A DNA stretch of 64,000 nucleotides. It comes from Candidatus Sulfomarinibacteraceae bacterium (GTDB taxonomy: Bacteria > Acidobacteriota > Thermoanaerobaculia > Thermoanaerobaculales > Sulfomarinibacteraceae). Position numbers: made by a program. The stretch is taken from the NCBI GenBank assembly GCA_963796455.1, contig CAWCLO010000010.1, forward strand, positions 512,001 through 576,000, in the 5' to 3' direction. This document shows, piece by piece, positions 21,001-24,000 of the stretch. How positions within the stretch are numbered: position 1 is the stretch's first letter; every line of letters begins with the position of its first letter.

Positions 21001-24000
21001 TGTTCGCCGCTGCGGGTAAGAAGAAATTCGATTTCGGCTCCGGCGGCAGCAGCCACGTCTTGCAGCCTTTTCTGGTGCCGGAGCAGCCGCCCACCACCGG
21101 CGGTCGGGTTGAGGATCACCGGAACCTGATTCACCGATGATTCCCCTGGTCGAAGAGATCCTTCGCGCCGGGCGGTCGGTCGAGTCCGAGATGTTTGAAG
21201 GCCGCCGCGGTCACCGTCCGGCCGCGGGGGGTCCGCTGGAGGAGACCGATCTGCAGAAGGTAGGGCTCGTGAATGTCCTCGAGGGTGCCGCGGTCTTCAC
21301 CGATCGATGCCGCCAAGGCCTTGAGTCCCACCGGACCGCCGTTGTAGACATCGATGATGGTGGTCAAAAGTTGTCGATCGAGATGATCGAGGCCGAAGCC
21401 ATCTACCTCCATCTGTTCCAGCCCCCAGCGGGTTGCTTCCAGAGTCACCACCTCCGAACCGAGGTGGTGCGCAAAGTCGCGAACCCGACGCAGCAAACGA
21501 TTGGCGATCCGCGGGGTGCCGCGAGCACGACGGGCAATCTCGTCAGCGGCATCGGAATCCACCTCGATGCCGAGGATTCCCGCCGATCGACCGACGATCA
21601 CTGCAAGATCATCCGCGGGGTAGAACTCGAGGCGATGGACGATTCCGAAGCGGTCACGCAACGGTGCCGTCAACAACCCGGTCCGGGTGGTCGCGCCAAC
21701 CAGGGTGAAGCGCGGCAACGACAATCGCACGCTGCGTGCCGCCGGGCCCTGGCCGATCACCAGATCGAGTTCGAAGTCCTCCATCGCGGGGTAGAGAACT
21801 TCTTCCACCGCCGGCGGCATGCGATGGATTTCGTCGATGAAGAGCACATCGCCGGTCTCGAGATTGGTGAGCATGGCCGCCAGATCTCCGGCTCGCTCCA
21901 ATACCGGACCCGAGGTGAAGTGGATCTGGGCACCCATTTCGTGGCCGATGATGCATGCGAGTGTGGTTTTGCCAAGTCCCGGGGGGCCAAAGAACAGCGC
22001 GTGATCGAGGGCCTCGCCTCGGTGCCTCGCGGCATCGATAAAAACCCGGAGATTGGTGACCAAACGCTCCTGGCCGACAAACTCCTCGAGCCGACGCGGC
22101 CGCAGCGTTTCTTCGTACGGGCCTTCATCTTTTTGCGGCTCGGTGTTGAGAATTTCGTCGCTCATACCCCGACTCTACCCTATCGACAAATCAGAGGGAA
22201 CGGCGGAGTGGATGCTGGATGCTAGATCACTCTTGTCCAAGACAGAGTCTCGGCTGGCGTTCAGGGACGGCGACAGCGATCAGCGTCAGGGACAGGGAAC
22301 AGCAATCAGTGTTCAGCGTCAGCGAACAGGAGTCAGCGTCACGTTTGACTGGCATGGGGCCCTGAAATCAAGACTTCGGGTTGAGCAATCTCCAAGTCAT
22401 TGCACGCACCTGATCGAAGGCCATCATCGCTTTACTGGCTCCATTTCGACTGATCGCCCCGGCGTGGGCGAGGAGCTCCAAGTGGCTGTCGACCTCTTTC
22501 GCGGAAGCGTAGGCGATTCTCCAATGGTTCGACCGGTCTCTACCGACTCGGCCGTGCCCTTCTGCCAGATTCGCAGGGACCGAACTCGCCGACCGGATCA
22601 CCTGATCGGCTATGGACTTCAGCGGAGCTGGAACCCTCATCACGATCTTGATCGCGATTCCTGCTGCTTCGAGGGCTTTCGAGTGGGCGACGAGGTTGGT
22701 GTTCGTGGCGGCTGAGGACATGGTCACGTCCGGGTCGTTCATGCCCATTCCCACAAGCCGGTGTGGTGGCCGATGTCAAGGATGCCCTGCACCCTGCCTG
22801 TCCTTGACATCGGCCGCCCACCGGCTACCCCTTCTGTTGAACGACCCGGTGGTGACCACTTCGTCGCCTGTACTCCTGACCGCTGCTGCTGCTCTCGGCG
22901 CTCGCTGACGGTGTCCCTGTTCGCTGTTGCCTGTCGCTGACGCTGGACACTGTCGCTGCCGCTGCAATTCGGGATCGGGAACGGGTACGTGCCAACCGCG
23001 AACCGGATATGCCAAAAACCAACCCGTAAACCACGTGTTGTCAGGTGGGTAACTTCAGGTGACGATCTGTTTTGGACAGCAGTGATGCTAGATGCTAGAT
23101 GCTAGATGCTAGATGCTAGATGCTAGATGCTAGATGCTAGATGCGACAAGATCGTCGATTCACCCCAAAGCATTGTGAAGGGCTACACCGGAACTGATGG
23201 TGATTTGCGCTTGAGGGGACTTTTCAGGAGACAGATTCAATCGAGGATCGAGCATCCTGCGTCCAGCATCCAGTATCGAGCCTGGGTTGGTGGGCTCAGC
23301 GCGTGAGCTTCTTCAGCGCCAGGCGGAGGACCTCGCCGAGATCCTCGCCACCGGCATCGGGCCACACCGCGTCGATGGTCTTGGCCGCATCCCGTTCCGA
23401 GTAGCCGAGATTCACCAGCGCGGACACCGCATCCGGTCGTCGGTGGTCGAGAGCTTTGGAGGTGGCCGTCAAGCGGTCCTTGAGTTCGAGGATGATCCGT
23501 TCGGCCGTTTTGCGGCCGACCCCGGGACTGCGCTGCAGACGTGCGCGATCGCCCGCCTCGATGGTCTGCGCGAGCTCATCGGCGGAGAGGGCCGAAAGCA
23601 CCCCGAGTGCCGTCCGCGGCCCGACACCCGCAACTCCGATGAGCTGCTGAAAGGCTTCGAGATCCTCGCGCTCGGGGAATCCATACAACACGATGGCGTC
23701 GGCGCGAACCTGGGTGGAAATCCAGAGCACAGCCTGCTCCCGGCCGGCAAGCTCGGAATAGGCCCGCAAGGTGGTCGACACCAGATAGCCGACGCCTCCG
23801 ACGTCGATCAGAACCGTCCCGGGGTCGACGCCGTGAAGGCGACCCTCGAGGCGCCCGATCATGAACGGGAGGGGCTGAATCGCTGCATGATGTCGTTGTC
23901 GATCGTCACCTGGGTGTCACGCCGTCGTTCGTTGAGGATCGAGCGCAAGAACATGTTGGCGCGCTCCGCGGTCAACCTGGCACGAACCCCTTCGAGTTGG

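What a model noticed while it worked through the whole genome (the two positions that open the first line are those of the whole stretch)
22900..23180. Over a thousand 6-9-bp microsatellite arrays fill the intergenic DNA and are the landing sites of hairpin elements
The genome holds 1089 non-overlapping tandem arrays of 6-9-bp units (heptamers and octamers dominate; up to 30 copies), 916 of them outside gene calls, and the TIR-bounded IVP elements sit inside heptamer arrays whose unit differs from site to site even between 95-99% identical copies. I read the heptamer arrays as the preferred targets (safe-harbour landing pads) of this lineage's hairpin/TIR elements, recognised by repeat structure rather than sequence. 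New would be a microsatellite-directed target choice for bacterial MITE-like elements and an explanation for an STRR-like repeat load so far known from cyanobacteria.
Evidence so far: TRF (2 5 7 80 10 40 500): 2358 rows, period 7 = 494, period 8 = 354; after removing overlaps 1089 arrays of period 6-9 = 46,229 bp; commonest canonical units AAAGGGAG 127, AGCGAT 73, AACTCCG 60, AAATCCG 50, AGCATCC 46, AATTCCG 46, AGAGGAGC 44 (max 29.9 copies). 562 of 2832 intergenic regions hold >=1 array: convergent 162/465, divergent 112/645, tandem 288/1722; 173 arrays lie in gene calls. Four near-identical IVP copies are flanked by (CTGGATG)n, (CCAGTAT/CCAGGAT)n, (TCTAGCA)n and (AAGATTC)n; at C10:534227-535084 the same unit continues on both sides. 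56 of 80 TIR-delimited elements have >=2 tandem NNNNGAT/ATCNNNN heptamers within 21 bp of an end, 30 at both ends, vs 78 of 5000 random inte [...]
(Added by a program. Inside this text positions count along the whole contig: contig position 512,001 is position 1 of the stretch shown here. "Call 12" and the like, gene names such as g00115 and contig names such as C1 are that model's own, and its searches are not shown. The text may have been shortened before it was handed on; [...] marks where a part breaks off. The agent that wrote the report below was given it as the finding of a first reader that could run no searches.)

Follow-up and report, generated by a model that had tools for sequence, protein, structure and literature searches.

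The report
Transposons landing in seven-base repeat arms
The thousand short tandem repeats between genes are real and are mostly leftover arms of small gene cassettes, and a transposon has adopted one family of these seven-base arms as a harmless landing site, a habit that related transposons show with other seven-base repeats in other bacteria.

Summary
The counts reproduce: 1089 arrays of period 6-9 against 13 rows in a Markov control. There are two layers.

(1) The arrays are not plain microsatellites. They form about 20 unit families, with the G-rich arm before the C-rich arm (215 vs 11 pairs). 508 of 1089 units equal the inverted arms that flank four-helix-bundle (IVP) or GxxExxY genes, and the unit follows the protein clade. 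This scan noted such cassettes before on other DNA.

(2) The TIR element is a non-autonomous IS4Sa-like cassette with a 9-bp target duplication; 9 = 7+2 explains why the unit 'continues' across it. In this genome it targets one family by sequence: 103 of 168 sites lie in GAT-heptamer arms and none in the two commonest octamer families. Tandem context adds about 2-fold. The arrays come first: congeners have them at ruvA-ruvB without the element.

New here: autonomous relatives in separate IS4 branches also sit in heptamer arms, each using a unit of its own host. This is a variant of REP-targeting insertion sequences; I found it neither in print nor in earlier notes. How the arms themselves move is not shown.

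The parts
21131..22165 (-). ruvB (host gene, downstream of the spacer)
   Evidence: TIGR00635 453.8 bits
23296..23862 (-). ruvA (host gene, upstream of the spacer); the spacer is 1130 nt here and 20-603 nt in 18 congeners
   Evidence: TIGR00084
22210..22227 (+). Left piece of the G-rich GAT-heptamer arm; 22219-22227 is the left copy of the 9-bp target duplication
22228..23084 (.). 857-bp non-autonomous IS4Sa-like cassette (MITE/MIC type), no transposase; about 168 sites genome-wide including single ends
   Evidence: ends shared with the IS4 element in L042
22228..22245 (+). Terminal inverted repeat, end A
   Evidence: (I2)
23067..23084 (-). Terminal inverted repeat, end B; identical over 18 nt to the right end of the autonomous IS4 elements in L042 and L117
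22262..22340 (+). Degenerate CAGCGA-type hexamer arm of the inner IVP cassette
   Evidence: (I1, I4-I7)
22368..22748 (-). Four-helix-bundle / 23S_rRNA_IVP gene (cargo); 73 matches to TIGR02436 in the genome, most of them this subfamily
   Evidence: TIGR02436 56.3 bits, PF05635 53.9 bits; weak match to 2gsc
22714..22865 (.). Nested hairpins over the start of the IVP gene (28-nt and 18-nt arms)
   Evidence: I3, I8
22880..22965 (-). Opposite hexamer arm (TCGCTG type on +), inverted partner of 22262-22340
   Evidence: I1, 48 nt, 79%
23085..23144 (+). Right piece of the G-rich GAT-heptamer arm, 8.7 units; 23085-23093 is the right copy of the target duplication
23145..23239 (.). 95-nt unique loop between the two heptamer arms
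23240..23281 (+). Degenerate C-rich GAT-family arm, inverted partner of 22210-23144; missed by TRF
   Evidence: (I9, I10, I12)

Best explanation
Two parasites are stacked.

Layer 1: small cassettes consist of an IVP (four-helix-bundle) or GxxExxY gene between two inverted arms of short tandem repeats, each protein clade with its own 6-10-base unit (shown). Gene-less hairpins, single arms and nested stacks of them fill the spacers, G-rich arm first (shown). They behave like REPs around RAYT genes; copy number then drifts by slippage, and later arrivals insert between earlier arms (inferred). The mobiliser is not shown; my best guess is that the cargo proteins recognise their own arm.

Layer 2: an IS4Sa-like DDE transposase acting in trans moves a TIR-bounded cassette and duplicates 9 bp (shown by sequence; trans action inferred). 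Its preferred target is the near-palindrome AT-N-C-W-G-N-AT. A 9-mer with the same self-complementary dinucleotide at both ends recurs every 7 bp in an array of a near-symmetric heptamer. So GAT arms offer a dense, gene-free, self-renewing target, and the unit appears to run through the element (geometry shown; causality inferred). In several IS4 branches target preference has settled on one abundant heptamer arm of the host: safe-harbour targeting as in REP-targeting IS.
For: Arms: 72 of 73 IVP genes from 35 genomes have an arm and 57 an inverted pair, vs 108 and 9 of 500 ordinary genes. The same unit (at most 1 difference) occurs in 30/39 cross-genome pairs at 70% aa identity or more, 12/1918 below 40%, and 3/63 pairs within one genome. 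24 of 30 GxxExxY loci have clade-specific arms by eye. 508 of 1089 units are identical to an arm unit vs 51 of 3267 random k-mers. G-rich precedes C-rich in 215 vs 11 pairs; the G-rich strand points away from the nearest gene in 265/312 cases at 3' ends and 108/122 at 5' ends.

Duplication: at 24 non-array pairs, 8 match at 8 or 9 of 9 bases, and no other length from 5 to 16 gives any such match. In congeners 24 of 40 sites have perfect 9-mers vs 10 and 14 for the next unit out, and 37 of 40 are AT-N5-AT, whatever the cargo.

Partner: an intact 1411-bp IS4 element with the same ends and a deletion derivative at a GAT site (L325).

Target.

Recurrence: a four-member clade (SH-like 100) is 4 of 4 array-flanked vs 2 of 93 other proteins with a located flank. 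A second group is 4 of 27 loci, with 9 of 14 ends in the host's own heptamer against a chance of 0.2-0.4% per flank.

Arrays first: 6 congeners have GAT arms at ruvA-ruvB without the element, by eye.
Against: No cognate transposase was found in this 90%-complete genome. 53 of 168 sites are not next to a recognisable array, and 87 of 230 ends lack AT-N5-AT. The closest autonomous copies have AA-N5-AA flanks that are not dyad-symmetric, and their two flanks differ, possibly chimeric assembly, so the symmetry argument does not cover them. Of the 14 ends, 6 belong to the copies by which the genomes were chosen; of the other 8, 4 are array-flanked. Only 292 of 1089 arrays have an inverted partner within 400 bp by a strict test (control 83). 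The commonest unit (AAAGGGAG, 157 arrays unmatched) has no cognate gene in my sample. This genome lacks the IVP clades for several of its commonest units. Unit-protein covariation can be plain linkage. The reconstructed empty spacer folds only weakly (-79.1 vs -71.1 +/- 5.8 for 100 base shuffles). No same-species filled/empty pair was obtained.
Confidence: 0.7

Rival explanations
1. Structure- or tether-directed targeting: the transposase senses 7-bp periodic DNA, an extruded arm, or a host/IVP protein bound on the arm, and sequence is secondary.
For: All array targets of autonomous relatives have period 7 with unrelated units: AAGAATT, AAAACTC, GACTTTA, AACTAAG, GCCAGTA, GCCTTCT, GCAACTG, TTCTGCA, CATTCCG. 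For the same motif, lone intergenic copies are hit at 5.9 per 100 sides and tandem ones at 10.9-16.8 (p = 8e-4). Other heptamer families take 3-13 sites per 10 kb vs 0.78 background. Other members of this IS4 group sit at palindrome centres (L071, L181-L183, L414).
Against: Within a genome one family dominates: 47 ends at one 9-mer vs 0-1 at equally common units of other families. In G164 the array-flanked ends all use one of several heptamer families present, and G161 has heptamer arrays but its two sampled copies sit in a palindrome. The 2-fold tandem effect can be flanking-base preference.
Confidence: 0.15
2. The element makes the arrays: each insertion duplicates 9 bp and imprecise loss leaves one extra heptamer, so GAT arrays are footprints.
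For: The arithmetic works (9 = 7+2). 44 TRF arrays of the GAT family touch a TIR end.
Against: Most GAT tracts carry no element (351 tracts, 103 sites). The same units flank a 9-member IVP clade in congeners and occur at ruvA-ruvB without the element. About 90% of arrays belong to families the element hardly touches.
Confidence: 0.05
3. The arrays are ordinary slippage microsatellites or a host RNA-level system (RNase III substrates, terminators, regulator sites); IVP/GxxExxY genes merely sit among them.
For: Arrays crowd within 20 nt of stop codons. Xanthomonas repeats show the same placement (PMC4692102). The Coxiella IVS stem with heptamer repeats is cut by RNase III (PMC4990558). A regulatory role was proposed for TAACTGA (PMC4679880).
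Against: Units follow protein clades and not hosts. The orthologous spacer holds different units or none in different congeners. The commonest unit is in only 9 of 24 congeners. 570 of 1089 arrays have a repeated flank. An RNA hairpin could still be why the inserts are tolerated.
Confidence: 0.1

Closest known systems
REP-targeting insertion sequences, especially ISRm22 (IS4 family, subgroup IS4Sa), IS1397, IS621 (PMC1525189; PMC2266710)
   Same: A DDE element that inserts at fixed positions in an abundant intergenic repeat. ISRm22 is in the subgroup whose end, size and duplication rules this element meets.
   Different: The target is a tandem heptamer arm, not a REP palindrome. The duplication is 9 bp (ISRm22: 6). 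Most copies are non-autonomous, and the unit changes from host to host.
Bacterial MITEs and IS231-type elements with passenger genes
   Same: IS ends and target duplication around passenger DNA, no transposase.
   Different: The passenger is itself an armed IVP cassette, or REP hairpins in congeners, and insertion is array-directed.
Heptamer repeats of Xanthomonas and Nostoc (PMC4692102), TAACTGA repeats (PMC4679880), cyanobacterial STRR (name recalled)
   Same: Intergenic 7-base arrays, often in inverted pairs, strand-biased near stop codons.
   Different: Here about 20 families coexist and can be tied to IVP/GxxExxY clades; the passages I read make no such link and name no transposon that targets them.
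ORF-bearing 23S rRNA intervening sequences (Coxiella S23p; PMC4990558)
   Same: IVP gene between inverted arms; the Coxiella IVS carries tandem heptamers upstream of the ORF.
   Different: These cassettes lie between protein genes, in many clades, with hundreds of gene-less arms.
REP/REPIN-RAYT systems (PMC2817692, PMC3116915; search listing only)
   Same: A gene flanked by inverted repeats whose gene-less doublets are scattered over the genome.
   Different: The arms are tandem arrays and the genes are not HUH transposases; no mobility has been shown.

Membership tests
IS4 family, subgroup IS4Sa (autonomous partner, L042) | DDE transposase with Y(2)R(3)E(6)K motif | tested here: met
   NF033592 251 bits over cut-off 115; PF01609 + PF14294; motif at residue 315
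IS4 family, subgroup IS4Sa (autonomous partner, L042) | Ends CA------T, size 1150-1750 bp, direct repeat 8-10 bp (Table 1 of PMC2266710) | tested here: met
   Ends begin CA with T at 9; 1411 bp; 9-bp duplications in relatives, though not at the L042 copy itself
IS4 family, subgroup IS4Sa (autonomous partner, L042) | Clusters with named IS4Sa transposases | not tested
   No ISfinder set available
MITE / mobile insertion cassette | TIRs of a known IS, target duplication, no transposase, many copies | tested here: met
MITE / mobile insertion cassette | Moved in trans by the cognate transposase | not testable with these tools
   No cognate transposase found in this genome; deletion derivative L325 links the ends to the clade
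REP-targeting IS | Insertion at a fixed position in an abundant intergenic repeat | tested here: met
   103 of 168 sites; 37 of 40 in congeners
REP-targeting IS | Target is a REP palindrome | tested here: not met
   Target is a tandem heptamer arm; some relatives do use palindromes
Slippage microsatellite (simple sequence repeat) | Units arise locally, independent of orientation and of particular genes | tested here: not met
   Fixed polarity, about 20 families, unit follows gene clade
23S rRNA intervening sequence | IVP/S23p ORF between inverted arms | tested here: met
23S rRNA intervening sequence | Located inside rRNA | tested here: not met
   Lies between ruvA and ruvB; no Rfam family near its gathering score
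23S rRNA intervening sequence | Excised from RNA by RNase III | not testable with these tools
   Needs RNA data or a bench test
REP/RAYT system | Flanked gene is an HUH (Y1) transposase | tested here: not met
   Armed genes are TIGR02436 or PF13366; the Y1_Tnp genes shown are flanked by palindromes, not tandem arrays

The most novel reading that the evidence does not exclude
IS4Sa-type transposases have repeatedly evolved to track a second, undescribed selfish system. They home to the heptamer arm of one IVP clade, by reading 7-bp periodic DNA or through the arm-bound IVP protein, and switch unit as hosts gain new cassette clades. The arms are cis-acting ends that IVP and GxxExxY proteins recognise clade by clade and mobilise without a transposase, which would explain heptamer repeats across bacteria.
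Probability: 0.25. Interest if true: 0.88.

Novelty: new variant of a known kind. Interest (0 to 1): 0.62.

Why it matters
Over-represented heptamer arrays in bacteria have had no accepted origin (PMC4692102 says no detailed literature existed). This genome ties named units to named gene clades and gives a testable prediction: each IVP or GxxExxY clade binds its own unit. It also gives a natural series of IS4 transposases with near-identical ends and different seven-base targets, a direct way to ask how DDE target choice evolves towards safe harbours. The cassette layer was noted by this scan on other genomes; the array-directed IS4 targeting, its 9 = 7+2 geometry and its recurrence with host-specific units are what this locus adds.

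Tried and rejected
- A 2-bp 'AT' duplication: fits array sites only; non-array sites show 9 bp.
- A resident mobiliser: one unrelated DDE_Tnp_1 gene with other ends; no IS256; no match to the L042 protein at 1e-30.
- A telomerase-like origin of the G-rich arms: no RVT_1 match in this 90%-complete genome; not excluded for relatives.
- GIY-YIG cargo: only one long gene matched.
- A cognate gene for AAAGGGAG arms: not found in 38 loci or among 8 relatives of the AGAGGAGC-armed IVP.
- A first selectivity test with the used 9-mers was circular and was replaced. The arm threshold was too lax (204 of 500 controls) and was tightened.
- An empty allele in public runs: four DNA runs laid, no joint skipping the element; one contig bridges the left junction without differences. 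No RNA holder listed.
- Rfam: two weak miRNA-type hairpin hits far below gathering scores.
- Literature: ten searches found no description of STR-armed IVP/GxxExxY cassettes or of IS4 elements targeting heptamer arrays. The library lacks most subscription papers, and no supplements were read; Fig. 3 of PMC2266710 (target consensus) is a figure I could not see.
- Earlier findings by the transposase sequence: none; by words: none holding all words.

Full report
**Observation.** The numbers are right. TRF on the whole genome gives 2358 rows and 1089 non-overlapping arrays of period 6-9 with the reported top units; a Markov control gives 13 rows of those periods. With my gene calls 1013 of 1089 arrays are intergenic. 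The load is not peculiar to this genome: 80-kb samples give 2-19 arrays in five congeners and 3-24 in five more distant genomes, against about 17 expected here. Earlier notes call the lineage acidobacterial; I did not check that.

**Anatomy of the locus.** The finding lies in the 1130-nt spacer between ruvA and ruvB. From outside in, there is a G-rich GAT-heptamer arm (22210-23144), a 95-nt loop and a degenerate inverted arm (23240-23281). The G-rich arm is interrupted by an 857-bp element with 18-nt terminal inverted repeats, and ATGCTAGAT stands on both sides. Inside the element an IVP gene lies between inverted hexamer arms. In 18 congeners with both genes on one contig (19 loci examined) the spacer is 20-603 nt. 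By eye at least 11 hold repeat arms, with several different units; 6 hold GAT arms without the element; one (G021) holds a TIR element with other cargo in a GAT arm, again with a perfect 9-bp duplication.

**Layer 1: the arrays are arms.** Units fall into about 20 families. Of 112 same-family neighbours within 1.5 kb, 90 are inverted, and for most families the partner is on one side only. Within spacers a G-rich array precedes a C-rich one in 215 pairs and follows it in 11 (periods 7-9, one element-internal family left out). The G-rich strand points away from the nearest gene at 3' ends (265/312) and at 5' ends (108/122) alike, so the rule follows the insert and not transcription. Each of the four IVP genes outside the TIR element and three GxxExxY loci of this genome sits between inverted arms of its own unit.

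Across 73 IVP genes (70 of the 122 matches, plus three more of this genome's own), 72 have an arm and 57 an inverted pair, against 108 and 9 of 500 ordinary genes. The unit follows protein identity (30/39 pairs at 70% or more, 12/1918 below 40%) and not the host (3/63). The GAT, CGGAATT, GAGTTTT, GGAATTA, GGGGCTT, GGCTATG and AGAGGAGC units of this genome each flank an IVP group. Among 30 of the 72 GxxExxY matches, two well-supported clades carry 9-10-base and 8-base arms respectively, 24 of 30 by eye. In all, 508 of 1089 arrays have a unit identical to such an arm (the element's own hexamer arms included), against 1.6% of random k-mers, and 570 have a repeated flank.

Against a tidy picture: only 292 arrays have a strict inverted partner, the commonest unit has no gene in my sample, and this genome lacks the genes for several of its units. 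Linkage alone could produce the covariation.

**Layer 2: the element is an IS4 derivative with a 9-bp duplication.** At non-array sites the duplication is 9 bp (8 of 24 pairs at 8-9 matches). At 40 paired sites from six relatives, taken from the places listed, 24 are perfect, more than the next unit out (10 and 14), and 37 are AT-N5-AT. Interiors differ (IVP cassette, REP-like hairpins, transposase remnant), so cargo does not set the target. An intact 1411-bp IS4 element with the same ends is in G017 (L042), and L325 is an internal deletion of that type at a GAT site. Ends, size, duplication and YREK motif meet the IS4Sa description. No such transposase was found in this genome.

**Target choice.** Of 168 sites, 103 adjoin GAT arms, 12 other families and 53 none. 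Per 10 kb this is 105 for GAT, 3-13 for four other heptamer families, 0 for the two commonest octamer families and two hexamer families, and 0.78 for other intergenic DNA (the GAT class was defined with more unit variants, which enlarges both counts and tract length). ATGCTGGAT is the target at 47 ends; three equally common 9-mers of other arrays take 0, 1 and 0. For one motif, tandem context raises the rate about 2-fold. The phase continuity needs no special mechanism: a 9-bp duplication in a 7-bp array is one unit plus two bases.

**Recurrence.** Among 109 related transposases, 97 with a located flank, the four closest form a clade (SH-like 100) and all sit in heptamer arrays, of AT-rich units; only 2 of the other 93 score so, one being low-complexity DNA. 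In a class-wide search 4 of 27 further loci are array-flanked. In those four genomes 9 of 14 ends lie in a heptamer, against 0.2-0.4% by chance; 4 of the 8 ends not used for choosing the genomes do. In the three with a sampled background the unit is among the host's own TRF arrays. On a 64-row tree the label changes 4 times (quick method). Other members sit at palindrome centres. Several targets are AT..AT or GC..GC near-palindromes, which fits a symmetric transposase dimer; the AA..AA flanks of the closest clade do not.

**Direction of cause.** Arms exist without the element at the orthologous site, most GAT tracts are empty (351 tracts, 103 sites), and the unit belongs to an IVP clade. The arrays came first. 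No same-species empty allele was obtained.

**Comparison with print.** I read passages of PMC4692102 (inverted heptamer pairs in Xanthomonas), the abstract and section 10 of PMC4679880, and passages of PMC1525189 (REP-targeting IS, ISRm22), PMC2266710 (IS4 subgroups), PMC4990558 (Coxiella IVS with heptamers), PMC3184786, PMC3936711 and PMC8700078. PMC2817692 and PMC3116915 were seen as listings only. Ten searches found no account of armed IVP/GxxExxY cassettes or of array-targeting IS4 elements. This scan has noted the armed cassettes in at least 9 genomes and the IS4 origin of this element in this genome; it had no note on array targeting.

**Verdict.** Real, partly misread. The repeat load is the debris of armed gene cassettes; the landing-pad behaviour is true for one family and is a new variant of repeat-targeting IS4 elements. 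Interest 0.62.

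Noticed in passing
window 43660-44545: A second copy of the element in a GAT array next to a tRNA-like sequence (about 43520-43592, minus strand, read by eye); its B end has lost the terminal repeat.
   Followed up: partly
G000 C1:10444-10899 and many short copies: Short copies carry a REP-like palindrome doublet in place of the IVP gene, resembling the palindromes downstream of two Y1_Tnp genes (C4:210157, C1:952748). Copies look mosaic.
   Followed up: no
L307, L316, L321, L323: In four congeners the same terminal repeats enclose different REP-like hairpins and no IVP gene: the element is a general carrier.
   Followed up: partly
G000 C1:33242-34113, C1:267863-268483, C1:335651-336238: Spacers hold a recurring long palindromic unit beginning TGTCATCCTGAGC, packaged with several repeat arms; composite blocks are copied between loci.
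   Followed up: no
L071, L181-L183, L185, L414, L437, L428: Related IS4 elements insert at the centre of REP-like palindromes with 9-bp duplications.
   Followed up: partly
L041:1192-1230 and 2707-2745: The genome's single DDE_Tnp_1 element has its own inverted ends and is flanked further out by a direct repeat of about 38 nt.
   Followed up: no
G064:C1:90988-102106, G068:C4:275050-303165, G063:C6:41530-51783: Three or four IVP genes cluster within 10-30 kb in these genomes; the host genes were not identified.
   Followed up: no
The commonest unit (AAAGGGAG) is present in 9 of 24 congeners and 1 of 94 other genomes of the order searched, and some loci pair it with a different octamer arm (L401-L403).
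   Followed up: partly
window 983-1200 and 35635-35740: Two further arm pairs (GGGGCTT and GGCTATG families) with degenerate partners 25-60 nt away.
   Followed up: partly
L024 (G005 ruvA-ruvB spacer): A roughly 90-nt unit with an internal inverted repeat occurs three times in tandem; similar units stand in L021 and L031.
   Followed up: no
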